The notes: generated by a model from the sequence alone, not told the origin. A DNA stretch of 64,000 nucleotides from Gemmatimonadota bacterium (GCA_026702745.1 JAPPBT010000058.1:72408-136407), one strand, 5' to 3'. Shown: positions 18,065 through 29,665, counted from the stretch's first letter. Numbers and translations are program-made.

Positions 18065-19291
18065 ATGATCCTCCCGGTTCACCTCTACCGATACGTGTTC
18101 AAGGCGCACGTCGGTCCCTTTCTGTTTTCCTTCGTGATCATCACGTTCATCCTCGTGATGGACATCATATTCCAGATCGCCGACCTCATCATCGGCAAGA
18201 ACCTCGACCTGTTCATCGTGCTCGAGGTGTTTTTCCTCAACCTGGCCTGGATTGTCGCCGTATCGATCCCCATGTCCGTGCTGGTCGCCAGCCTCATGGC
18301 ATTCGGCCGGCTTTCGGCCGACAACGAGGTTACCGCCCTCAAGGCTGGCGGCGTCAGTTTCTTCCAGATGGTCTCGCCGGTCCTGGTAGCGGGACTCCTC
18401 CTGGGGAGCGGCCACCTGTTCTTCATGGACGTCATTCTGCCCGAATCCAACTACCGGGCGCGCTCGCTCATGAACGACATCCACCGTGCGCGTCCCACGT
18501 TGCTTTTCACCGGGGGCATATTCATGAAGGACATACCGGGATACAGCATCCTGATCGACCGGGTCAATCCAAGAAACAACGAAATCTCCGGTATCACCAT
18601 CTACGAGACAGAGAACATGCGCTATCCGCGCCTCATGACGGCAAAGACCGGAGAATTCCACGTCAACGAGACGGGCAGCCGGCTCGATCTCATGCTGTAC
18701 GACGGAGAACTGCTTCAGCAGGACGAATCTTCGGGACGCTATCTAAAAGAGATCTTCGAGCGGCAGCGGTTCACGATCCGCACCGAGCCGGCCGGCGTCC
18801 AGCGGTCGGAGGCGGGAATCCGGAGCGACCGCGAGCTGAACATCGCGATGATGCGCGCCAGAATCGATGAATGGCAGACGGAGATCGACGCTGCACTGGC
18901 GATCATGGCACCCGGACCGGTTTCCCCGGAGGCGAAGGCGGATTCCCTCGAGGCAGCGAGGGACCGGGCGGAGCGGACGGTCTCGCTGAGGCAGCGGCAG
19001 AAGAACAGCTACATCGTGGAGATCCACAAGAAGTACGCCATTTCAGCGGCCTGTTTCGTCTTCGTGTTGATCGGCGCACCGCTGGGGGTTCGCATACGCC
19101 GCGGCAGCATCGGCGTCAGCGTGGGCGTCAGCCTGTGCTTCTTCCTGCTGTACTGGGCCTGCCTGCTCGGCGGTGAGGAATTGGCGGACCGCGACCTGAT
19201 CGACCCCGTCTGGGCGATGTGGGCGGCAAACATCGTCATCGGCGTTCCCGGCGCCGTCCTGGTCTGGGTCACCGGCAGGGACCGCATCTGA
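18065..19291 (+). CDS. lptF: LPS export ABC transporter permease LptF (YjgP/YjgQ family)
   Basis: Polytopic membrane protein with a periplasmic beta-jellyroll insert, paired with a paralog downstream. Confidence 0.75.
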   Translation: MILPVHLYRYVFKAHVGPFLFSFVIITFILVMDIIFQIADLIIGKNLDLFIVLEVFFLNLAWIVAVSIPMSVLVASLMAFGRLSADNEVTALKAGGVSFFQMVSPVLVAGLLLGSGHLFFMDVILPESNYRARSLMNDIHRARPTLLFTGGIFMKDIPGYSILIDRVNPRNNEISGITIYETENMRYPRLMTAKTGEFHVNETGSRLDLMLYDGELLQQDESSGRYLKEIFERQRFTIRTEPAGVQRSEAGIRSDRELNIAMMRARIDEWQTEIDAALAIMAPGPVSPEAKADSLEAARDRAERTVSLRQRQKNSYIVEIHKKYAISAACFVFVLIGAPLGVRIRRGSIGVSVGVSLCFFLLYWACLLGGEELADRDLIDPVWAMWAANIVIGVPGAVLVWVTGRDRI

Positions 19292-19355
19292 CGGTCAGCT
19301 TGGACTCGTTTTATCCGCTTCGATTCGTTCGATACCACCGGAGGAACGCCGTTTC

Positions 19356-20438
19356 ATGTCCCTGATCACCCGGTACGTGCTACGCTTGTTCATCACCGCT
19401 ATCGCCGTCAGCCTGATCGCCTTCGTCAGCATCTTCTTCGTGGTCGATCTCATTGAGCAGCTGGACCGGTTCCTGGACCGTGATGTGGCCCCGGTATACA
19501 TCGCGCTCTACTACGTCTACTACACGCCCTATATCTTCGTACTCACGATTCCCGTCAGCCTGCTGCTCGCCAGCCTGTATACCTTCGGCCAACTGACCAG
19601 GCTGGGCGAACTGACCGCCATGAAGGCATCGGGGCTCAGTGTGTACCGGTTGCTGAGGCCCCTGCTCCTGGTCAGCGCGGTGGCAAGCGGTGGCCTGTTC
19701 TGGGCCGGTGAATGGCTCGTTCCCCATACGAGCATGAAACGGGCGGAAATCCAGTCGGAGCACGTGGACCTGCGGGGCGGCGTGGGGCAGCACATACGAA
19801 ACGACGTGTATTTCAGGGGAGAGGGAGGGCGCCAGTTCTATATCCGCGTATTCGACGGTCTCGACGCGGAGGGCACGGGGGTTTTCGTCACCGAATTCCA
19901 GGACAGCCTCGTCTCCAGCGTGCTCGAGGCGGAAAGCGCCGTCTGGCAGGACGGGCGCTGGCTGCTTTCAAACGGGGTGGAACGACGGTTCCAGGCGGGA
20001 GGCGGACTGTCCGAATACAATACCTTCGTCGAACGGGAACCGGACGGATGGTCCGTAACGCCGGAGGATTTCATGCGGGGGCAGAAACGTCCCGAGGAGA
20101 TGAGCTACGGAGAACTCGACCAGTTTATTCAGAATGTCCGGCGCGGAGGCGGAGACGTGCAGGGCTACCTGGTAGACCTCAACCTGAAGATCGCCTTCCC
20201 CAGCGCGGGCCTGATTATCGTGCTTCTGGGCGGCGCGCTGGCCACTCACCTGAGACGGGGCGGTGTCGCGGTGGGATTTGCCCTGAGTATCGGTATCTGT
20301 TTCATCTACTGGGGGCTGCTCCGCTTTACCCAGGCCTTCGGACACGCCGGATTGCTTGACCCCATGTCGGCGGCCTGGGGCGCCAACGCGCTCTTCGGCC
20401 TCCTGGCCCTGGTACTGCTGGTCAGAGCGCCCAAATAA
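19356..20438 (+). CDS. lptG: LPS export ABC transporter permease LptG (YjgP/YjgQ family)
   Basis: Paralog of the upstream gene, same architecture. Confidence 0.75.
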   Translation: MSLITRYVLRLFITAIAVSLIAFVSIFFVVDLIEQLDRFLDRDVAPVYIALYYVYYTPYIFVLTIPVSLLLASLYTFGQLTRLGELTAMKASGLSVYRLLRPLLLVSAVASGGLFWAGEWLVPHTSMKRAEIQSEHVDLRGGVGQHIRNDVYFRGEGGRQFYIRVFDGLDAEGTGVFVTEFQDSLVSSVLEAESAVWQDGRWLLSNGVERRFQAGGGLSEYNTFVEREPDGWSVTPEDFMRGQKRPEEMSYGELDQFIQNVRRGGGDVQGYLVDLNLKIAFPSAGLIIVLLGGALATHLRRGGVAVGFALSIGICFIYWGLLRFTQAFGHAGLLDPMSAAWGANALFGLLALVLLVRAPK

Positions 20439-21790: not shown

Positions 21791-22840
21791 TCAGACGAAA
21801 ACTTCGCAGTTTGTGCCTTCCGGACTGTGTGGGCCGTCGGGGCCGCCCAGACCTCCCAGGTCGACCGGGCCGCCCAGGTTGCCCAGGCCGATCGGAACAC
21901 GCCTTACCGTGTCGGCCAGGACGGCGTGGGGGGTAACGATGGCACCCCGGAGGTCGCAGTTCTCAATACGGGCGTGGGATCCGATGGTGGCGTCGCGGAC
22001 GACGGAACGCGCGACGGAAGCCCGGGACGAGATGGCGACGTGGGGGCCGATGACCGACCGGTGGACCCGGGCGTCGTCCGCGATGTCTACCGGTGGAATG
22101 ATCACGCTGCCGGGAATGTCGCAACGCCCTCCGTTCAGGTCGAGCAGCCGCCTGTTGGCCTCCAGCAGACGCTCCGGCGTGCCGCAATCGTACAAGTCGT
22201 CGACTTCAAAGGGGACCAGGTGTTCGCCCTGTTCCACCATCCATTGCAGCGCGTCCGTCAGCTGATACTCGTTCCGGGTCCTTCGGCCGGAACGTACCAG
22301 GGTTTCCAGTCCTTCCATGAGCGGCCGGGGATTGGAGAAACCGTAGATCCCGGCGATCGCGAGATTCGAAACGGGGTGGTCGGGTTTCTCCACCAGCCGG
22401 GTGATCCGCCTGTCCTCGACCTCGACCAGTCCGTACCGGCTAAGGTCACCGGCGACCCGCTTGACGCCGATGGCGTTACCGGGCGGTTCGTCGGCGAGGA
22501 AAGCAAAATCAGACAGATAGATGACGTCACCCAGCAGGACCAGGAGCGGCTCGTCATCCACGAGGTCCGCGCACAGGTGCACGGCGTGTCCGATCCCGAG
22601 CGGCTCTTGTTGCAAGACGTACCGGGCTTCGAGGTCATCCCGCCGGTCGACGTACCGGCGGATGGCGTCACCCGACGGCGAGATTACCAACACAACGTCG
22701 CGGATGCCCATGGCGGTTACCTGGTCGAGCAGGTATTCCAGCACCGGCTTGCCGGCGACGGGGACCAAGGCCTTGGGAGTCTCAAGCGTGACGGGGTGCA
22801 ATCGGCTGCCGCTGCCGGCGACGGGAATGATGGCTTTCAT
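21791..22840 (-). CDS. Sugar-1-phosphate nucleotidyltransferase with a C-terminal left-handed beta-helix domain
   Basis: MKAIIPVAGSGSRLHP... NTP-transferase N-terminus; hexapeptide-like C-terminus; degenerate GLGxLGGP repeats at the extreme C-terminus. Confidence 0.75.
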   Translation of the reverse strand: MKAIIPVAGSGSRLHPVTLETPKALVPVAGKPVLEYLLDQVTAMGIRDVVLVISPSGDAIRRYVDRRDDLEARYVLQQEPLGIGHAVHLCADLVDDEPLLVLLGDVIYLSDFAFLADEPPGNAIGVKRVAGDLSRYGLVEVEDRRITRLVEKPDHPVSNLAIAGIYGFSNPRPLMEGLETLVRSGRRTRNEYQLTDALQWMVEQGEHLVPFEVDDLYDCGTPERLLEANRRLLDLNGGRCDIPGSVIIPPVDIADDARVHRSVIGPHVAISSRASVARSVVRDATIGSHARIENCDLRGAIVTPHAVLADTVRRVPIGLGNLGGPVDLGGLGGPDGPHSPEGTNCEVFV

Positions 22841-23043
22841 GGAGATTCCTTGCGCGTGCGCACCCTCTCCCGGCGGAACGCGCCGGGACCGAAAAGAACG
22901 GTTCAGTAAGTAACAACGGACCAGGGCCGCGCGCAACAGAAATCATCGTCGCCGGAAGCTGCCAACCACGGTCTACTCGCCGGCGGATCCCCGTCTTCGC
23001 GGCTGCGGGATCCGGTCTCTTCGGCTGCATGCTGTCCCGGGAT

Positions 23044-23718
23044 TCAGAAGATCGAACCGAGCCAGGCACCGAGGGCTTCCATCCGGCCGGTCAGCAGGGA
23101 GATGCGCGCCATGACCGTGTAGCCGAAGGCCGCGCCGAAGGTCACCATCAGCACCCAGATACCCGCGCGGGACACGTGTCCCAGCACGCCCTTGTGCTCG
23201 ACAGAGAAGAAGAAGTATACCAGGCCGCAGATCACGCCCAGGACGAGTACGACGTGGGAGAAACTGGCGCCCCAGAGCAGGTTGCCCGAAGCATCGAGCA
23301 CCACGAGGGGAATCATGGTACTCTGGACCTGGATGATGAAGTCCGAATCGAGGAAACGGGGCAGGTTGAATCCCGCCGCACCGCCGACGATGAAGGCCAG
23401 GGCCCAGCGGCTGAGCCAGGCCCAGCGTTCGATCAGGCGGGTGAGCAGCAGCAGGCCGAAGACGGCGGGGATAAGGTAGTAGTAGTCCGGCGACCGGCCC
23501 ACGGCGCCGGGCACGACGCCTGACATGAGCGAAGGGAACAGCTTGCCGAGCAGGTTCGGCACCAGGTGGTCCCAGAACCCGACGGCCATCAGGTAAGCGG
23601 CCGAAACGCCGACGAACAGGTGTTCGGCGAACTTGTAGAAGGGATTGTCCCGGTAAAGGAAACTGAGGATCATCAGCGTGAGGGCCGCGTCGATCCAGAG
23701 CATCAGCGTTACATCCAT
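23044..23718 (-). CDS. Integral membrane protein (~6 TM), unknown family; last gene of the candidate novel operon
   Basis: Hydrophobic profile; follows the upstream gene after a 64-nt gap. Confidence 0.5.
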   Translation of the reverse strand: MDVTLMLWIDAALTLMILSFLYRDNPFYKFAEHLFVGVSAAYLMAVGFWDHLVPNLLGKLFPSLMSGVVPGAVGRSPDYYYLIPAVFGLLLLTRLIERWAWLSRWALAFIVGGAAGFNLPRFLDSDFIIQVQSTMIPLVVLDASGNLLWGASFSHVVLVLGVICGLVYFFFSVEHKGVLGHVSRAGIWVLMVTFGAAFGYTVMARISLLTGRMEALGAWLGSIF

Positions 23719-23782
23719 AAATAGTCCTCTATGGCCGGTGTCAGACCCGGTCCCTCTGGCATGTCCGGTCTGTCCGGCCGGC

Positions 23783-24670
23783 CTAGCCTGCCCGGTTACC
23801 CTGGCCCGTTCTGCCCGCCCGGTCCGCCCGGCCGAAGAAATAGGCCAGGTTGCCCAACAGGACCAGCAGTACGATCAGCACGTGGGTCACGACCTGGGGA
23901 CCCATGCGCATGGTGGCCTCCATGGTGGCGTTCCGGTAGGCCGGATACCGGTCCACCAGGGCGGACTCGTACTCGGAAGCCCCTTTGAGGCCGCCCATCA
24001 GGCCGACCAGTTGCTGGGGATAATAGGGATAGAGTTCCGGCGCCACCACGGCCGTGCCGCCTCCCATGACGGGAATCCCCGCGATGTCGCCCGCGAACTG
24101 GATCCACTCCTTCAGTCCCGGGTCCCCTGCGGTCAGGCTCAGGATGATGACGTAGTCCACCATCTCGTCCACGTCCGCGGTTATGGGAAGGTCGTCGAGG
24201 GGCGTGCCCTCCGCGTCGGCGTTGACCAGGGTCCTGAAGTTGACCACCATGGTGTTGATCGCGCCGCCCAGGCCGGCCTTGTACCCCAGGTTCACGAAGT
24301 CCCGGCCGTACGCCTTGTCCGGAAACTCCTCGGGCAGCAGGTTGTCCGTAATCTTCTTGATCTGTCCCACCCCCTCGGGGAACAGGGTGAAGAAGGACAC
24401 CTCGTGGCCGCGGATCATCGTATGCCGCACGAGGGCCTTCGCCATGGGATCCAGCTCGGGAGCGGTGTCCGGACCGTAGTCGAAGGAAAGGAACACCCGC
24501 GACCCGGCCGGAAGTCGTTCCACGGTGTCGAAGATCGACTGGACGATAGGCGTGGGGCTGTCCTGGAAACGGGGTTTCAGGAGCAGTGGAATGCAGACCG
24601 CCGCCCCGATGAGAAGGAAGATGATCCGGCGGTCGATCTGCAGGATGAAATCGGGAATCCGCATGCTCAC
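23783..24670 (-). CDS. Membrane-anchored protein (N- and C-terminal TM helices flanking a ~200-aa non-cytoplasmic domain), unknown family
   Basis: ATGA overlap with the upstream gene. Confidence 0.5.
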   Translation of the reverse strand: MSMRIPDFILQIDRRIIFLLIGAAVCIPLLLKPRFQDSPTPIVQSIFDTVERLPAGSRVFLSFDYGPDTAPELDPMAKALVRHTMIRGHEVSFFTLFPEGVGQIKKITDNLLPEEFPDKAYGRDFVNLGYKAGLGGAINTMVVNFRTLVNADAEGTPLDDLPITADVDEMVDYVIILSLTAGDPGLKEWIQFAGDIAGIPVMGGGTAVVAPELYPYYPQQLVGLMGGLKGASEYESALVDRYPAYRNATMEATMRMGPQVVTHVLIVLLVLLGNLAYFFGRADRAGRTGQGNRAG

Positions 24671-25347
24671 TCTCCCCGTCCCAGGTAGTTGCGTTCGATC
24701 CCCAGGATGATGCGCAGAGAAGTCGCGATGACCCCCAGGGCGATGCCGATCATGATGGCCCGCTGGCCGGCCGTATTGGGCCAGGCCATAATCCAGTTGG
24801 CCAGGTTCGGCAGTTCGAGGAAGGCCAGGCTTTCCGGCATCCAGGCTGTCAGCCAGGCCCCTACGGGCGTCCTACCCAGCAGGATGACCATCGCGGCCGA
24901 CAGGAGGATGGTCGCCTCTTTCGTGCGCGCCCGGAAGGCACGGTAGGACGCCGACGCGACGAAGAAGGCCAGCAGGGAGAACATGGTGGCCGACAGCGGG
25001 TTGTAGACCCCGTCGAACATGAACCGCAGCCAGGAACCCGAGGCCAGGATCTCCCCACCCATCCCGCCGGGGTTGCCCACCTTGAACAGGCCGATCACGA
25101 GGGTGACGAGAAACGCCACCAGGGTCACCACGCTGTAGGGCCAGTCCGCAGCGCGGCTGGAAACGCGTTTCAGGTGAATCTTGAGCAGGCTCCCGCCGCC
25201 GAGGATGAACGCAAAGACGGTGATGATGGCGAAGTAATCCGAGAAACTCTCGTAGAGCGTATTGAAGGGACCCCGCGTCACGAAGTAGCCCGTGATCAGG
25301 ACCACGCCGATGATAAAGGTGATGATGAGGGGTATTCTACGGCGCAT
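24667..25347 (-). CDS. Integral membrane protein (~6 TM), unknown family
   Basis: Hydrophobic profile; starts 5 nt after the upstream TAG stop. Confidence 0.5.
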   Translation of the reverse strand: MRRRIPLIITFIIGVVLITGYFVTRGPFNTLYESFSDYFAIITVFAFILGGGSLLKIHLKRVSSRAADWPYSVVTLVAFLVTLVIGLFKVGNPGGMGGEILASGSWLRFMFDGVYNPLSATMFSLLAFFVASASYRAFRARTKEATILLSAAMVILLGRTPVGAWLTAWMPESLAFLELPNLANWIMAWPNTAGQRAIMIGIALGVIATSLRIILGIERNYLGRGE

Positions 25348-25352
25348 GGGAC

Positions 25353-26330
25353 CTACCTGAAGAGCCAGAGCACGATTTCGGAGACTTCGCGGACGGTTTC
25401 ACTTCCGGTAATGGATTCCAGGGTGGCCAGCGCGCTGCCGGCCAGGATGAATACGATGGCGATGCCCTTGCCGGCGTCCTGTCCCTTCAGGCTGCCCAGC
25501 ATGCGTGGTTCCTTGGACAGGTACGCGCTGGCAGCGAACAGTTCCTCTCCGATCAGCGTATAGTCGCAGGCCGCCACGAAGAAGGGCAACTGGGGAGGCC
25601 TGGCCGTCCCCGCGATCTGTATGGCGCCGATGGAGTTGCCCGTTTCCGCCAGGATAAGCGATTCGGCGTAGAACCCGCCCAGGTAGAAGCAGGCGGCCGG
25701 CTTTTCCCGCACGATGATGCCGTCTACGGCCGCCGCGTAGGCGAACTGCGCATCGGAGACGTAGTGTATGTCGTCTTCCTGGTAGGCGTCGGGGCGGCCC
25801 GCGGTCAGGTAGGATTGCTGCACGGTTTCCCGGGCCACGCTCATGACGAGGGACTTGCGCACGGGCACGTGCAATCTGGAATCGTAGCCCGCGATGATGG
25901 TGGCGAGATGACCCAGCAGGTTCATGGACGCGATGGTCTGCACCTCGTCCATGTCGTTCAGGCCGGGGACGTAGAGGATGGGCTTGCCCATCTCCGTCGC
26001 CCGTCCCACGGCTTCCTCCACCGTCTCCAGGCCGGCGATCTTGCGTATGAAAAGCGGCCGGCCCGCGGAGGCCAGCACCACGTAAAGCAGGATAGCGCCC
26101 GTCAGGACGATCCCCAGGACCAGGGCCTGGGTCCGGTCCGCGTTGAACCAGCCGGATTCGGTGCCGGCCTGGGCCAGTACGGGATCCGGCTGCAGCACGG
26201 AGAAGATTGCCGTGAGGGCGAGGATCGCCCGCGACAAGGAGAAGTCCGCCGCGAAGGCAAGGACCGCCTGCGACAGGCCGGTCGCGGTGGTTAAGTTCTG
26301 CGGTATGCGGGTCGTTGGGCGGAAATGCAT
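25353..26330 (-). CDS. Membrane protein (N-terminal TM pair, soluble middle domain, C-terminal TM), unknown family
   Basis: Start ATG overlaps the upstream TGA (TGATG). Confidence 0.5.
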   Translation of the reverse strand: MHFRPTTRIPQNLTTATGLSQAVLAFAADFSLSRAILALTAIFSVLQPDPVLAQAGTESGWFNADRTQALVLGIVLTGAILLYVVLASAGRPLFIRKIAGLETVEEAVGRATEMGKPILYVPGLNDMDEVQTIASMNLLGHLATIIAGYDSRLHVPVRKSLVMSVARETVQQSYLTAGRPDAYQEDDIHYVSDAQFAYAAAVDGIIVREKPAACFYLGGFYAESLILAETGNSIGAIQIAGTARPPQLPFFVAACDYTLIGEELFAASAYLSKEPRMLGSLKGQDAGKGIAIVFILAGSALATLESITGSETVREVSEIVLWLFR

Positions 26331-27469
26331 CAGGTCTCCACGATCTCCACGTTCGCCCGGGGCACCGTCACGAGCGCTCCGTTCGTCCGGCGCGCTTCCA
26401 GCACCCGTGCGAAGGCGCCCGTGGGAAGCCGCACGGGCTGTTCGGGCAGCGACGCCACCGTAGCGAGTTCACCGAACCAGGGTTCGCGGATCAGGCGTAC
26501 GAGCGAACCGGCTTCAAGGCCGCGGCCGGCCGGGGCCGCCCGATCCGAGGAGGCCTGATCAGCAGACGCCTCGTCGCCGTCGGACCTGATGATGATCTCG
26601 GGACGGATCACACCGGCCCGGATCTGCGTGGCGCCGCTCAGGGAAGCTTCGCGGTCCTGCATGGAACGGAGCAGTTCGAAGGTGCGTTCTGCCATGGGCA
26701 GCCATCCGAAGCCTTCGGTGACGATCATGGTCAGTCCGATGTCTTCCCCGCCAGTCACCGCGACGCCGATCTGGTATCCCAGGAGGTCGCCGATATCGTG
26801 GTAACGCATGCCGCCCACGACAACGCCGGACGCGCCAACCTCTATCAACTTACGCAACGCGTCAAGGGTGATCATGGATCCGCAGCATACGATCCGGCCC
26901 CGCAGACGGTCATCGATCATTTTGCCGGTGACCTCTTCCTCGGGCGATTGGACGATCTGGCTTATGGGCGCGTGCGTTTCGCCCCCCACGCCGAAGATCC
27001 CCTGAATGCAGGCGCCGGCCGTTTCCACCACGACGCCCTCCCCCGGCAGTGTTTCGGTGACCGTGCCGTCGAGGTAGGCGTTGATCCGCACCGGGGTCGA
27101 CGGTTCCCGGATGAGCACCTGGCCGGTCACTTCCGAGACCATTTCGATGGTGCCGCTTTCGGGACCCCGGACGCTGGATTTGAACAATCCGAAGATCCCC
27201 TTCGATTCGGCGATCAGTTCGCCTTTCGCCACCGGTTCGTCCCGCTGCTTGAGCATGCAGCCCGGCACTTCTTCCGGTGCGATGGCCAGGGCATTGGCCA
27301 CATTGACGTTGTGCACCGGTCCGGGCAGGTAGGTCTCGGCGACTACCGTGTCAGGCCGTACCCGGTCGCCGACCTCCACCAGCACCTGGCCGCTCAGCGG
27401 AAGGCGACGCGTCCTGGCGACGACGGTCCGGGGCGATACGCGCAGGCCTGATGTATAGGCGTGGGCCAT
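26330..27469 (-). CDS. Soluble protein whose N-terminus resembles the NqrA/RnfC barrel-sandwich hybrid domain; unknown function
   Basis: LPLSGQVLVEVGDRVRPDTVV...KGELIAESKGIF...SGTIEMVSEVTGQVL pattern; start ATG overlaps the upstream TGA (TGATG). Confidence 0.55.
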   Translation of the reverse strand: MAHAYTSGLRVSPRTVVARTRRLPLSGQVLVEVGDRVRPDTVVAETYLPGPVHNVNVANALAIAPEEVPGCMLKQRDEPVAKGELIAESKGIFGLFKSSVRGPESGTIEMVSEVTGQVLIREPSTPVRINAYLDGTVTETLPGEGVVVETAGACIQGIFGVGGETHAPISQIVQSPEEEVTGKMIDDRLRGRIVCCGSMITLDALRKLIEVGASGVVVGGMRYHDIGDLLGYQIGVAVTGGEDIGLTMIVTEGFGWLPMAERTFELLRSMQDREASLSGATQIRAGVIRPEIIIRSDGDEASADQASSDRAAPAGRGLEAGSLVRLIREPWFGELATVASLPEQPVRLPTGAFARVLEARRTNGALVTVPRANVEIVET

Positions 27470-29271
27470 CAGTCTGGCTCCGGATAGAGGTCGAGTGCGC
27501 GGCAATCCCTTTGCAGCCTTTCCACCCGTTCGGCCGCGTCCGCCGGCCAATGAAGCGGTCTGCCGCGGGTGTCGACGATCACGCCCAGGGGACCGTTCCG
27601 CACGGTACGGGCGACCGTCACGCCCCGTCCGGCGCCGGCGTCGAAACTACGGACGGGCACGACCTCCAGGGCGACCTCCTCCGCCTCCCCGGCCGGAATC
27701 GCGGCCAGTTCGCCCACGGCCGCCTCGTGCGTCCATTCCCCGTCGTCCGTCCTCGCCCTGACGGTCGCGCACGGGGTGCCGCGCGCTCCGGTACCCACGG
27801 GCGCCACGCACGGACCGAGATGGACAAGGCAATCCCGGTCGAAAACCTCCAGTGCCGCGGTTTCATGCACGGTCGACAGCACGCCCAGGTGGGGCATCAT
27901 GAAGATGCTGTCCACCGCCAGGTTCGTGATGCCCTCGGGCTGGAAGGCGTCCACCATCATCAGCGCGGCCTGCGCCCGGCTCGGTGCGTGGGAGAGCACG
28001 CCCCCGCTGCCGATGACCAGGTCCAGGTTCATCAGATCGACCAGGGTCCGGCCGCCCGTCTGCTGGTCGAAGGTGTCCGATATGGTTCGAAGCTGTTGCA
28101 CGCCCTTCAACTCGACGGCGAAGTTCCGGTGCTGCTCGAAGGCCAGCCGCAGGGCCTCGCGGGCCACGGCCTGCTCGATGATCAGCTCCTCCAGGGTCTG
28201 GGGGATGCTGGTGGGCCGGATCATCTTGTTGCCCATGCGGTCTTTCAGGTCGGCGTCGGTCATTTCAAAGGGCAGCCACCGGGCGATGTTATCCAGCCCC
28301 GCCTCCGTCAGCACGTTGGAAATACTGTAGCTCATGCCGAGATTGGCGCTGACGGTCCGGTTGAACGCGCCGCCGAAGACCGAAAACACGTCGGTGGTCG
28401 CACCGCCGATATCCACACCCAGCACGTCGATGCCACTTCGTTCCGCGACGACCCGAACCATCCGTCCCACGGCGCCGGGTGTAGGCATGATCGGCACGTG
28501 GGTCCACGCCATCAGGTCGCTGTACCCGGGCGCCTGGGCCATCACGTGTTCCATGAACAGGGTGTGGATCTGTTCCCGGGCGGGGCCCAGGTTCTCCGCT
28601 TCGAGCACGGGCCGCAGGTTATCCACCCGGCTGAGTTCCGTCCGTTCGGCCAGAATTCGTCCGACGTCTTCGCGGGCGTCGGCGTTCCCGGCGTAGATGA
28701 CCGGCAGATCGTAGCCGCTGCCCAGCCGGGGTCTCGGGTCCGCCGCGGCGATCAGTTCGGCCATCTCGACCACGTGGGACTTCGTGCCGCCGTCCACGCC
28801 GCCGGACAGCAGGATCATGTCCGGCCGGAGCTGACGTATGCGTTCGATGCGCTCGTGGGGCAGGCGCCCGTCGTTTGACGCCAGGGTTTCCATGACGATG
28901 GCGCCCGCGCCCAGGGCCGCCCGTTCGGCACTCTCGGCGGTCATGCTCTTGACCACGCCGGCCACCATCATCTGGAGCCCTCCGCCGGCGCTGCTCGTCG
29001 AGACGTAGAGGTCCACCCCGCGGTCACCCTCGGCGGGCGACACGATCCGTTCTCCGTCGAGGATCTCGCGGCCGGACTGCTCCTCCACCTCGCGCACCGC
29101 GTTGAGGACGCCCCGCGTGACGTCCTCGAAGGGCGCTTCCACGGTCGTTGGCGCCTCACCGCGAACGACGAGACGGTAGGCGTCGGCGCGTCGCTTGATC
29201 AGGATGGCCTTGGTGGTGGTGCTGCCGCAGTCCGTGGCCAGGATGACGCTGGTTTCTGGTGGAAGGGACAT
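27469..29271 (-). CDS. GlmL/MutL-like ASKHA-superfamily ATPase (actin/Hsp70 fold) with a C-terminal ~130-aa extension
   Basis: Phosphate-1 ILATDCGSTTTKAIL, phosphate-2 VLGVDIGGATTDVFSV and adenosine VIGSGGVLSH motifs; 600 aa. Confidence 0.7.
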   Translation of the reverse strand: MSLPPETSVILATDCGSTTTKAILIKRRADAYRLVVRGEAPTTVEAPFEDVTRGVLNAVREVEEQSGREILDGERIVSPAEGDRGVDLYVSTSSAGGGLQMMVAGVVKSMTAESAERAALGAGAIVMETLASNDGRLPHERIERIRQLRPDMILLSGGVDGGTKSHVVEMAELIAAADPRPRLGSGYDLPVIYAGNADAREDVGRILAERTELSRVDNLRPVLEAENLGPAREQIHTLFMEHVMAQAPGYSDLMAWTHVPIMPTPGAVGRMVRVVAERSGIDVLGVDIGGATTDVFSVFGGAFNRTVSANLGMSYSISNVLTEAGLDNIARWLPFEMTDADLKDRMGNKMIRPTSIPQTLEELIIEQAVAREALRLAFEQHRNFAVELKGVQQLRTISDTFDQQTGGRTLVDLMNLDLVIGSGGVLSHAPSRAQAALMMVDAFQPEGITNLAVDSIFMMPHLGVLSTVHETAALEVFDRDCLVHLGPCVAPVGTGARGTPCATVRARTDDGEWTHEAAVGELAAIPAGEAEEVALEVVPVRSFDAGAGRGVTVARTVRNGPLGVIVDTRGRPLHWPADAAERVERLQRDCRALDLYPEPD

Positions 29272-29275
29272 GGAG

Positions 29276-29665
29276 TCAGTTTACCGTGTCATCCGCCCCG
29301 GAGGCGTGATGCTCAATGCGCTGGATCAGGAACTCCACGTTCTCCCGGCGCTCGATGGCCTCGGCGATCCGGTCGTAGTCCGACGCGTCCACCACCATGT
29401 GAATGAAGGGGCTCAGGAAAGCCATGAACTGGCCGCCCAGAAACGAGAGGGGTTTCATGGATTCCAGGAAGAGGACCGCGGGCGCGGTGAGCTCGCGCGC
29501 GGCTATGGCCTCGGCGATCCGGTCAAGCAGGGCCTGCTGTTCCGCCACGGTCTCTGATGAATCACTCATGCCGGTCCGCCTGGTGCACTTGATCGGCCTG
29601 GTCGTCCTGGTCGGCCTGGTCGGCCTGGTCGGTCCGACCGGTCCTCTAACAGGCTGTCGGAGCAT
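29276..29665 (-). CDS. Small soluble protein of unknown function; N-terminal (PTR)n region may be coding (alternative start at ATG 29569)
   Basis: ORF starts 9 nt after the PhyH stop; conserved-looking core MSDSSETVAEQQALLDRIAEAIA... Confidence 0.4.
   Translation of the reverse strand: MLRQPVRGPVGPTRPTRPTRTTRPIKCTRRTGMSDSSETVAEQQALLDRIAEAIAARELTAPAVLFLESMKPLSFLGGQFMAFLSPFIHMVVDASDYDRIAEAIERRENVEFLIQRIEHHASGADDTVN
29595..29639 (-). repeat. 9-bp tandem repeat (ggcctggtc x5) in the 5' region of the small ORF, encoding (PTR)n if translated
   Basis: Direct repeats in the DNA. Confidence 0.8.

What the first reader, a model, noticed from the sequence alone, without database searches (positions are those of the whole stretch)
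23044..26330. Four consecutive integral membrane proteins of unrecognised families
The 325-, 226-, 295- and 224-aa proteins all have clear TM segments, and the 226- and 224-aa proteins look like a distant paralogous 6-TM pair. I could not assign any of them to a known transporter, respiratory or secretion family by eye. Their tight coupling to the ATPase argues that they are the membrane part of that machine.
Basis: inference. Interest (0 to 1): 0.6.

Follow-up and report, generated by a model that had tools for sequence, protein, structure and literature searches.

The report
Uncharacterised four-protein membrane module with ATPase
Four adjacent membrane-protein genes form a strictly conserved cassette found across at least a dozen bacterial phyla, often encoded next to an actin/Hsp70-fold ATPase, and match no characterised transporter, respiratory or secretion family, so they probably belong to a widespread membrane machine that nobody has studied.

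Summary
The four minus-strand ORFs are real genes for integral membrane proteins: g325, g226, g295 and g224 (window 23044-26330). In related loci, 104 of 111 and 23 of 24 DUF6754 genes are followed by the other three in the same order. The phyla include Gemmatimonadota, Zixibacteria, Ignavibacteria, Planctomycetota, Acidobacteriota and others.

g325 does belong to a named family, Pfam DUF6754, whose function is unknown. The other three match no Pfam, NCBIfam, PADLOC or PDB entry. The proposed paralogy of g226 and g224 is not supported (BLASTP E>1; hhalign probability 0.3%), and they appear to have opposite orientations.

The cassette lies in a translationally coupled operon: g129, g600 (a GlmL/MutL-family ASKHA ATPase), g406 (barrel-sandwich-hybrid protein), then the cassette. 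This order recurs in many phyla. Natural g600-g406 fusions exist. One g600-g406 pair can precede two to four paralogous cassettes. In a g406-centred sample, however, only about a quarter of g406 genes lie directly next to a cassette.

Conservation is highest on the predicted cytoplasmic face. The periplasmic face varies and has gained FN3, β-propeller and peptidase domains.

Best reading (confidence about 0.45): a modular, ATP-driven trans-membrane machine of a new kind, with unknown substrate. No paper mentions it.

The parts
25353..26330 (-). g325, a DUF6754 protein. Predicted layout: N-terminal signal-like segment (periplasmic N-terminus; homologues carry FN3 or a β-propeller there), TM1 (about 65-88), a cytoplasmic α/β half (about 89-216), an extremely conserved region of short helices (217-286), TM2 (about 287-308), and a periplasmic tail.
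   Evidence: Pfam PF20539 E=1.4e-118. 110 invariant columns across phyla in the 20-sequence alignment A1. AF2 pLDDT is 65: the α/β half is confident and the 217-286 region is low. Identity among paralogous cassettes is 75% in 217-286 against 28% in the TMs. Foldseek against PDB gives no match (E>0.1).
24667..25347 (-). g226, a 6-TM protein predicted N-in/C-in. Conservation is highest in TM4, the following cytoplasmic loop (ASASYRAFRA) and the TM6/C-terminal tail.
   Evidence: Hydropathy and K+R bias over 117 homologues. A FG-GAP insertion of about 390 aa sits in the TM3-TM4 loop in three loci, which marks that loop as periplasmic. No consistent Pfam, NCBIfam or PDB hit. 6847 homologue clusters; all named hits are 'hypothetical' apart from one JGI label, 'cytochrome bd-type quinol oxidase subunit 2'.
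23783..24670 (-). g295, a bitopic-like protein. Predicted layout: cytoplasmic N-terminus with an invariant DRR motif, TM1, a periplasmic six-stranded parallel α/β (Rossmann-like) domain of about 225 aa, TM2, and a basic cytoplasmic tail.
   Evidence: AF2 pLDDT 89, pTM 0.84. K+R bias is 2.7 at the N-terminus and 4.2 at the C-terminus. Foldseek against PDB gives only generic Rossmann/GT-B/SDR matches (best E=3e-4, TM about 0.3). No Pfam family in 46 members.
23044..23718 (-). g224, a 6-TM protein provisionally N-out/C-out, the opposite of g226. Conservation is highest in the loops YKDNPFYKFAEH and FFFSKEHKG and in TM6.
   Evidence: Many homologues have a seventh TM followed by a Lys-rich tail, and planctomycete homologues have an N-terminal signal-anchor extension. 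No consistent Pfam family in 46 members and no PDB hit at all. 1863 representatives at 50% identity.
26330..27469 (-). g406 (true length 379 aa, starting at M28), a soluble protein with an N-terminal RnfC/NqrA-type barrel-sandwich-hybrid domain, a Gly-rich central domain and a KOW/SH3-like C-terminus. It is the probable adaptor between the ATPase and DUF6754.
   Evidence: RnfC_N hits in 18/29 members, Biotin_lipoyl in 16/29, NQRA_N in 8/29, KOW in 6/29. The start is confirmed by homologues and the NCBI model. TGATG overlaps with both neighbours. In Planctomicrobium, g406-DUF6754 stay adjacent and overlap by 4 nt even without the rest of the operon. Fused to g600 in L147, L067 and L068.
27469..29271 (-). 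g600, a GlmL/MutL-family ASKHA (actin/Hsp70/hydantoinase-fold) ATPase with a β-rich C-terminal extension of about 120 aa.
   Evidence: PF13941 E=2.7e-130. It scores below the NCBIfam GlmL equivalog cut-off (239 against 475 bits). The nucleotide-binding motifs DCGSTTTKA, GVDIGGATTD and GSGGVLSHAP are conserved in 28 homologues.
29276..29569 (-). g129 (probable true length 97 aa, starting at ATG 29569), a small conserved protein with the hydrophobic motif LTxPAxxFLExxxPLNxxGSQxMxFFxP. It is the first gene of the operon.
   Evidence: Alignment of 19 homologues. It is found upstream of g600, or between g406 and DUF6754, in many loci. A 4-nt spacer separates it from g600.

Best explanation
The four proteins are the subunits of one conserved inner-membrane module. 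It consists of DUF6754, a 6-TM protein, a protein with a periplasmic α/β domain, and a second 6-TM protein.

This module works with a soluble cytoplasmic module made of the small protein g129, the GlmL-like ASKHA ATPase g600 and the barrel-sandwich-hybrid adaptor g406.

Proposed mechanism (inferred, not shown): g406 docks onto the cytoplasmic face of the membrane module. That face is formed by the near-invariant DUF6754 helical region 217-286 and the conserved cytoplasmic loops of the two 6-TM subunits. ATP binding and hydrolysis by g600 drives conformational changes that cross the membrane to the periplasmic side. There the g295 α/β domain, together with lineage-specific FN3, β-propeller, FG-GAP or S49-peptidase domains, handles a periplasmic or envelope substrate.

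On this reading it is a modular primary transporter or mechanotransducer. One motor can serve several substrate-specific cassettes, much as a shared ATPase serves several ECF or ABC membrane modules. The substrate and direction are unknown. An envelope-related substrate is a weak guess.
For: Shown:
- The cassette order is near-invariant: 104/111 and 23/24.
- The operon order g129-g600-g406-cassette recurs in Planctomycetota, Phycisphaerae, Acidobacteriota, Aegiribacteria, Zixibacteria and the window.
- Stop/start overlaps link g600/g406 and g406/g325.
- g600-g406 fusion proteins occur in three loci.
- The g406-DUF6754 pair stays together in Planctomicrobium.
- A single g600-g406 pair sits next to 2-4 tandem paralogous cassettes.
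- The ASKHA nucleotide-binding motifs are intact.
- Among paralogous cassettes, the DUF6754 helical region keeps 75% identity against 28-53% for the rest of that protein and 36-44% for the other subunits. The predicted periplasmic loops are the least conserved.
- Extracytoplasmic domains were gained at positions predicted to be periplasmic.
- AF2 models g295 confidently but gives low confidence to the most conserved part of DUF6754. This is expected if that part folds only against partner subunits.

Inferred: docking, energy coupling and the transport function.
Against: - No physical interaction was shown.
- About half of the cassette loci have no ATPase within 10 kb.
- In the g406-centred sample only 17/67 g406 genes are directly followed by DUF6754. 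Some g406 genes stand alone, and some (g129)-g600-g406 units are duplicated with no cassette nearby.
- Genome-level co-occurrence was not tested.
- To my knowledge (not tested here) no ASKHA ATPase is known to power a transporter, and GlmL-type proteins are thought to be chaperone-like reactivases.
- The topology of g224 rests on weak charge bias (5.3 against 3.9 K+R). One in-frame g295-g224 fusion (L029) contradicts it.
- The DUF6754 model is of low confidence, and no multimer prediction could be run.
Confidence: 0.45

Rival explanations
1. The membrane cassette is an autonomous complex, for example an ion-gradient-driven transporter or a membrane enzyme whose catalytic centre is the near-invariant DUF6754 cytoplasmic domain. 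On this reading g600/g406 is not its motor. It is an assembly, repair or regulatory chaperone, analogous to the role proposed for GlmL, EutA and DdrA with their partner enzymes.
For: - The cassette is often encoded without the ATPase nearby, and the ATPase pair without the cassette.
- DUF6754 has many invariant charged residues (R110, E113, D126, D128, R167, E168, R179, D193, E223, E229, D256, E262, E263, K282), as an active site would.
- g600 belongs to the GlmL/MutL family, whose characterised context is chaperone-like (role from general knowledge).
Against: - One ATPase pair in front of several cassettes, the codon overlaps and the persistent g406-DUF6754 pairing all fit a stoichiometric partner at least as well.
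- No invariant acidic residue lies in the TM helices of g226 or g224 that would suggest H+/Na+ coupling.
- The DUF6754 domain has no detectable similarity to any enzyme.
Confidence: 0.25
2. The system is a scaffold rather than a transporter. g600 acts as an actin-like or Hsp70-like ASKHA protein tethered to the membrane through g406 and the cassette. It would organise or power an envelope process, in the way PilM-PilNO, FtsA or MreB-RodZ/MreCD do, and may cooperate with Tol-Pal.
For: - g600 has the ASKHA fold.
- g295 has an invariant cytoplasmic N-terminal DRR motif followed by a TM and a periplasmic domain, which recalls how PilN presents a motif to PilM (the analogy is from general knowledge).
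- g600-X-g406 lies directly upstream of, and co-directional with, tolQ-tolR-tolA-tolB-pal in 9 loci.
- The window's operon lies near lptF/lptG.
Against: - The GlmL/hydantoinase branch is not known to polymerise.
- The tol-pal linkage is confined to one type of locus and may be inherited synteny.
- Two polytopic 6-TM subunits per cassette and multiple cassettes per ATPase are not features of the known ASKHA tethering systems.
Confidence: 0.12
3. It is a degenerate or divergent relative of the Rnf/Nqr ion-translocating complexes. g406 would correspond to RnfC/NqrA, g226 and g224 to the antiparallel 6-TM pair RnfA/E or NqrD/E, and g295 to the bitopic periplasmic subunit RnfG/NqrC.
For: - The N-terminal domain of g406 hits RnfC_N (18/29 members) and NQRA_N (8/29).
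- There are two 6-TM proteins of about 225 aa with apparently opposite orientation, plus a subunit with a periplasmic domain.
Against: - No hit to the Rnf-Nqr, FMN_bind, NQR2_RnfD_RnfE or any redox-cofactor family in 46 members of each family.
- No invariant cysteine in g226 or g224.
- The partner is an ATPase, not an NADH- or ferredoxin-binding subunit.
- The barrel-sandwich-hybrid domain is a widespread module found in many families.
Confidence: 0.04
4. The four proteins are divergent subunits of an already characterised secondary or binding-protein-dependent transporter, such as TctABC, TRAP or ABC.
For: Only the general resemblance: small polytopic membrane proteins encoded in a row.
Against: No Pfam, NCBIfam or PDB profile hit to any transporter family for the window proteins or for 46 homologues of each. 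There is no P-loop ATPase and no recognisable solute-binding protein in the operon.
Confidence: 0.03

Closest known systems
Pfam DUF6754 (PF20539)
   Same: g325 is a full-length member: E=1.4e-118 over 251 of 257 profile positions.
   Different: The family is only a sequence definition with no known function. No paper in the searched library mentions it. Its obligatory three-gene retinue and its link to the ATPase are not part of the family description, as far as I could find.
GlmL/MutL, the methylaspartate (glutamate) mutase accessory protein family (PF13941; NCBIfam NF040745)
   Same: g600 matches PF13941 end to end and keeps the ASKHA nucleotide-binding motifs. NCBI names it 'glutamate mutase L'.
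   Different: It scores far below the GlmL and Or-4 equivalog cut-offs (239 against 475 and 226 against 600 bits). It has an extra C-terminal domain of about 120 aa. It sits next to g406 and membrane proteins, not next to B12 mutase subunits. The database name is almost certainly a misannotation of function.
Shared-ATPase modular transporters (ECF transporters; ABC importers sharing one ATPase)
   Same: One cytoplasmic ATPase module is encoded with several paralogous membrane modules. The cytoplasmic docking face is the most conserved part, and the outward-facing part varies.
   Different: The ATPase has the ASKHA fold, not a P-loop/ABC fold. No subunit is homologous to EcfT, S-components or ABC TMDs. 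Transport itself is unproven.
Rnf / Na+-NQR complexes
   Same: A peripheral subunit carries an RnfC/NqrA-type barrel-sandwich-hybrid N-domain. There are two 6-TM subunits of about 200-230 aa with apparently opposite orientation, and a subunit with a periplasmic domain.
   Different: There is no sequence homology in the membrane subunits, no cofactor motifs and no conserved Cys. The system pairs with an ATPase instead of a redox input module.
ASKHA proteins tethered to bitopic membrane partners (PilM-PilN/O, FtsA, MreB-RodZ)
   Same: An ASKHA-fold cytoplasmic protein is genetically coupled to membrane proteins that expose periplasmic domains. g295 has an invariant short cytoplasmic N-terminal motif.
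   Different: It belongs to a different ASKHA branch (hydantoinase/GlmL). An intermediary adaptor (g406) is present, along with two polytopic subunits. There is no homology to PilN/O, RodZ or MreC/D.

Membership tests
Pfam DUF6754 (PF20539) | Score above the gathering threshold of the family HMM over most of its length | tested here: met
   g325: 395.1 bits against a cut-off of 27, E=1.4e-118, profile positions 2-252 of 257. All 120 listed homologues carry PF20539.
GlmL (methylaspartate mutase accessory protein, NCBIfam NF040745 equivalog) | Score above the curated equivalog cut-off | tested here: not met
   g600 scores 238.8 bits against a cut-off of 475. For Or-4 it scores 225.8 against 600, and for TIGR01319 184.5 against 204. 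It does pass the broader Pfam MutL model (435.6 bits).
GlmL (methylaspartate mutase accessory protein) | Genomic association with B12-dependent mutase subunits (GlmS/GlmE or OraS/OraE) | tested here: not met
   The operon neighbours are g129, g406 and four membrane proteins, none with a B12-binding or mutase domain. The same holds in the related loci analysed.
   No such hit at E<=1 for the window proteins or at E<=0.01 in 46 homologues each of g226 and g224.
Rnf/Nqr complex | 6-TM subunits matching the Rnf-Nqr family (RnfA/E, NqrD/E), with conserved cysteines in the membrane | tested here: not met
   No Rnf-Nqr hit in 46 members each of g226 and g224. There is no invariant Cys in either family.
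Rnf/Nqr complex | Peripheral subunit with an RnfC/NqrA-type barrel-sandwich-hybrid N-terminal domain | tested here: met
   RnfC_N in 18/29 and NQRA_N in 8/29 g406 homologues, best E=2.5e-6. The match is at domain level only. The rest of g406 matches neither RnfC nor NqrA.
Rnf/Nqr complex | Flavin-binding periplasmic subunit (FMN_bind domain; RnfG/NqrC) | tested here: not met
   No FMN_bind hit in 46 g295 homologues. The AF2 model is a six-stranded parallel α/β domain with only generic Rossmann-like matches.
ABC / ECF transporters | P-loop ABC ATPase with Walker A/B and signature motifs | tested here: not met
   The only ATPase in the operon is ASKHA-fold (PF13941). No ABC_tran hit was found in any operon protein.
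   BLASTP best E=1.3. hhalign of the family alignments gives probability 0.3%.
Anti-phage defence systems (PADLOC) | Match to any defence-system protein model | tested here: not met
   No hit at E<=1 for any of the seven operon proteins.

The most novel reading that the evidence does not exclude
This is a previously unrecognised class of primary active membrane machine: a transporter or a trans-envelope mechanotransducer. Its motor is an actin/Hsp70-fold (ASKHA, GlmL-like) ATPase rather than a P-loop, P-type or rotary ATPase. The motor docks through a barrel-sandwich-hybrid adaptor onto interchangeable four-subunit membrane cassettes. The system is conserved across at least a dozen mostly uncultured diderm phyla, including Gemmatimonadota, Zixibacteria, Ignavibacteria, Planctomycetota, Acidobacteriota, Eisenbacteria, Calditrichaeota, Marinimicrobia, Cloacimonadota and WOR-3.
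Probability: 0.35. Interest if true: 0.9.

Novelty: categorically new. Interest (0 to 1): 0.7.

Why it matters
The system is broadly distributed. The families have thousands of members across at least a dozen phyla, and DUF6754 keeps 55-66% identity between phyla. The signature protein is conserved about as strongly as core cell machinery.

Yet three of the four membrane proteins have no family name, and none has a structural relative or a literature record. The partner ATPase carries a misleading enzyme-accessory name.

If the ATPase really drives the membrane module, it would be a new way of coupling ATP to membrane work. It would also give an entry point into the envelope biology of phyla that dominate soils, sediments and sponge symbionts and have few genetic systems.

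Even if the coupling is only regulatory, the four-gene cassette is a well-defined, testable unit, and an isolate that carries part of the system is available (Planctomicrobium sp. SH661).

Tried and rejected
**Database searches**
- Pfam, NCBIfam, PHROGs and PADLOC on all operon proteins gave only DUF6754, MutL and a weak RnfC_N hit.
- Pfam on 46 homologues each of g226, g295 and g224 gave only scattered single hits, such as TMD0_ABC in 3/46 and AveC_like in 1/46. I treated these as chance.
- PDB profile searches for g406, g325, g226, g295, g224 and g600 gave nothing significant. The best results were FN3/titin for the accessory FN3 domain and the RNAP β' hybrid domain for g406.

**Paralogy**
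- BLASTP and all-against-all hhalign were negative for g226~g224. For g325~g295 only the TM helices matched, at probability 4%.

**Structure**
- AF2 gave a good model for g295 and a mediocre one for g325.
- Foldseek against PDB returned generic Rossmann/GT-B/SDR hits for g295, including transhydrogenase dIII at TM 0.5. I did not over-read these. It returned nothing for g325.

**Literature**
- Searches for DUF6754, PF20539/PF13941, GlmL and related phrases, and ASKHA plus phylum names found nothing relevant.

**Context leads judged lineage-specific or single cases**
- ftsY upstream of g406: Planctomicrobium only, 2 loci.
- S49 peptidase fusion: 1 locus.
- tol-pal downstream of g406: 9 loci of one locus type.
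- The g381 nucleotidyltransferase downstream in the window is not conserved elsewhere.

**Other**
- The promoter/terminator scan gave only intragenic consensus matches and no informative signal.
- A biotin/lipoyl-lysine or EIIA-type histidine in the g406 hybrid domain was considered and rejected, because no invariant K or H is present there.


Full report
**What is there**

Window positions 23044-29665 carry a seven-gene operon on the minus strand:
- g129 (29276-29665; probable true start ATG 29569)
- g600 (27469-29271)
- g406 (26330-27550; true start ATG 27469, giving 379 aa)
- g325 (25353-26330)
- g226 (24667-25347)
- g295 (23783-24670)
- g224 (23044-23718)

The junctions show translational coupling. 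g600/g406 and g406/g325 share TGATG stop/start overlaps. g325 and g226 are 5 nt apart. g226 and g295 overlap (GTGA). g295 and g224 are 64 nt apart.

The exact protein sequences are in public collections, from a Gemmatimonadota metagenome-assembled genome. g325, g226, g224 and the 379-aa g406 are labelled 'hypothetical protein', and g600 'glutamate mutase L'. The 295-aa reading of g295 was not found as an exact sequence. Its nearest cluster (97% identity) is also 'hypothetical'. The flanks are ordinary chromosomal genes: SSB, LptF/LptG, MetK, a sugar-1-phosphate nucleotidyltransferase, PhyH and a sulfatase.

**Checking the observation**

All four proteins of the finding are membrane proteins.
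- g226 and g224 have about six TM helices each.
- g325 has a signal-like N-terminal segment and two TM helices around a region of about 200 aa.
- g295 has two TM helices around a region of about 225 aa.

They are clearly genes. g325 has at least 8000 homologue clusters, g226 has 6847, g295 has 1208, and g224 has 1863 representatives at 50% identity.

The 'unrecognised families' claim is right for three of the four. g325 is Pfam DUF6754 (E=1.4e-118), a family with no known function and no mention in the searchable literature. g226, g295 and g224 have no Pfam or NCBIfam family. This holds both for the window proteins and for 46 homologues of each. None of the proteins has a relative among solved structures by profile search.

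The suggested paralogy of g226 and g224 is not supported (BLASTP E>1; hhalign probability 0.3%).

**The cassette is a unit**

I fetched 79 loci around DUF6754 genes from species-representative genomes and 80 loci around g406 genes from metagenomes. I then searched all their ORFs with the window proteins (phmmer, genome set) or with family HMMs built from them (metagenome set).

Among DUF6754 genes with enough downstream sequence, 104 of 111 (genome set) and 23 of 24 (metagenome set) are followed by g226, g295 and g224 homologues in exactly that order.

The carriers are labelled Zixibacteria, Ignavibacteria, Gemmatimonadota, Eisenbacteria, Coatesbacteria, Planctomycetota and Phycisphaerae (including the isolate Planctomicrobium sp. 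SH661), Acidobacteriota, Cloacimonadota, Marinimicrobia, Aegiribacteria, WOR-3 and others. Calditrichaeota and Fermentibacteria appear among the protein hits.

Zixibacteria- and Ignavibacteria-type loci carry two to four tandem paralogous cassettes. The window's single cassette is closest to the second type in those arrays.

**Link to the ATPase**

The full order g129-g600-g406-cassette seen in the window recurs in Planctomycetota, Phycisphaerae, Acidobacteriota, Aegiribacteria and in many metagenome contigs.

g600 is a MutL/GlmL-family ASKHA protein (PF13941, E=2.7e-130) that falls well below the curated GlmL cut-offs. It keeps the three nucleotide-binding motifs. It is never next to mutase genes in the loci examined here.

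The g406 family has an RnfC/NqrA-type barrel-sandwich-hybrid N-domain and a KOW-like C-terminus.

g600 and g406 are fused into one polypeptide in three loci. In Planctomicrobium, g406 and DUF6754 stay adjacent and overlapping even when the rest of the operon is elsewhere. One g600-g406 pair accompanies several cassettes. A bacterial-PH-domain membrane protein precedes g129 in eight genome loci, and its relatives form the largest neighbour cluster (12 loci) in the metagenome set.

The linkage is not obligatory.
- About half of the cassette loci show no ATPase within 10 kb.
- From the g406 side, only 17 of 67 g406 genes are directly followed by DUF6754, and 37 of 56 are preceded by g600.
- Solitary g406 genes exist, as do duplicated g600-g406 units with no cassette nearby.

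**Anatomy and topology (partly inferred)**

Family-averaged K+R counts give these predictions:
- g226: N-in/C-in.
- g295: N-in, periplasmic domain, C-in.
- g325: N-out, cytoplasmic domain, C-out.
- g224: N-out/C-out, with only a weak margin.

Independent support comes from domain gains at positions predicted to be periplasmic:
- FN3, or a BamB-like β-propeller, at the DUF6754 N-terminus.
- An S49 peptidase at the DUF6754 C-terminus.
- A FG-GAP insertion of about 390 aa in the TM3-TM4 loop of g226, seen in three loci.

For g224, a frequent seventh TM followed by a Lys-rich tail, and a signal-anchor extension in planctomycete homologues, fit N-out. One in-frame g295-g224 fusion (L029) contradicts this and remains unexplained.

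AF2 gives a confident model of g295 (pLDDT 89). It shows a six-stranded parallel α/β domain between two TM helices. Foldseek finds only generic Rossmann-like resemblances for it.

DUF6754 is modelled with low overall confidence (pLDDT 65). An α/β half is confident. The most conserved stretch, residues 217-286, appears as four short helices of low confidence and has no PDB match.

**Conservation pattern**

Among paralogous cassettes within the same locus, DUF6754 residues 217-286 keep 75% identity. Its TM helices keep 28% and its α/β half 53%. g226, g295 and g224 keep 43%, 36% and 44%. The best-conserved parts of g226 and g224 are loops predicted to be cytoplasmic, and the predicted periplasmic loops are the least conserved.

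The cassettes therefore share a constrained cytoplasmic face and differ on the periplasmic side.

**Interpretation**

The most economical reading is a modular machine with three parts:
- a cytoplasmic motor made of g600, g406 and g129;
- a conserved docking face built from DUF6754 and the cytoplasmic loops of the two 6-TM subunits;
- variable periplasm-facing elements that set specificity.

I commit to an ATP-driven transporter or mechanotransducer (confidence about 0.45). The docking, the energy coupling and the transport itself are inferred, not shown.

The main rival (about 0.25) is that the cassette works on its own and g600/g406 is a chaperone-like or regulatory accessory, as GlmL-type proteins are thought to be for their enzymes. 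A scaffold role linked to the envelope is possible (about 0.12). Nine loci place g600-X-g406 directly upstream of a complete tolQRAB-pal cluster. An Rnf/Nqr-like origin is suggested only by architecture and the g406 N-domain, and it fails every sequence test. The TctB/TRAP-type explanation is excluded at the level tested.

**Novelty**

No membership test places the membrane module in any characterised system. No paper was found. The ATPase's database name is misleading. I rate it categorically new as a system. The component sequences have long been present in databases as hypothetical proteins and one DUF, and the function remains unknown.

Noticed in passing
window 29593-29632: A 9-nt tandem repeat (TCGGCCTGG on the + strand, 4.4 copies, 93% matches) lies just upstream of the probable true start of g129 (ATG 29569). 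If the long ORF start at 29665 were used, it would encode PTRPTRPTR. It could be a leader or regulatory element, or a variable tract.
   Followed up: partly
L098:1-11100 (also L095, L114, L133, L090, L018, L024, L035, L064): In one locus type the soluble module g600-X-g406 lies directly upstream of, and on the same strand as, tolQ-tolR. The full tolQ-tolR-tolA-tolB-pal cluster was confirmed in L098. X is a secreted protein of about 250-280 aa with no Pfam family. In the genome loci of this type (L018, L024, L035, L064) the cassette array is transcribed divergently from it.
   Followed up: partly
L028:9482-11869 and L075:8309-10771: Two DUF6754 fusion proteins. One has a C-terminal Peptidase_S49 (SppA-like) domain (E=1e-43) and no g226/g295/g224 downstream. 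The other has an N-terminal PQQ_2/BamB-like β-propeller.
   Followed up: no
L029:15337-17052: A single in-frame fusion of g295 and g224 (571 aa, linker RRARKRAAGGGRST). It is incompatible with the predicted topologies: g295 C-terminus inside, g224 N-terminus outside. Either it is a stop-codon loss or assembly error, or the g224 topology is wrong.
   Followed up: partly
L037:5384-6328 and L046:7247-8194: In Planctomicrobium the SRP receptor gene ftsY sits immediately upstream of the g406-DUF6754 pair. The other cassette genes and g600 are not within the fetched flanks of about 7-10 kb.
   Followed up: no
L062:5647-6108 (also L057, L049, L071, L042, L066, L072, L077; a similar cluster of about 150 aa in 12 metagenome loci, e.g. 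L108:6373-6828): A membrane protein of about 150 aa precedes g129 in many full operons and may be an eighth component. The L062 member has a bacterial PH domain (bPH_6, E=1e-6). The metagenome example L108 gave no Pfam hit. The window has no copy of it.
   Followed up: partly
L116, L123, L129, L155, L117: Tandem duplicates of the soluble module (g600-g406-g129-g600-g406) with no membrane cassette on the same contig stretch.
   Followed up: no
window 18065-20438 (+) and 21791-22936 (-): An LptF/LptG permease pair lies about 2.6 kb beyond the 3' end of the operon, on the opposite strand. A sugar-1-phosphate nucleotidyltransferase with a hexapeptide C-terminus lies 107 nt downstream of g224 on the same strand. 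Neither neighbour is conserved in related loci.
   Followed up: partly
P0550 (homologue of g224): Some g224 homologues carry insertions of 200-250 aa in the loop after residue 140. One of them contains an EF-hand-like calcium-binding motif, and the others have no Pfam family.
   Followed up: no
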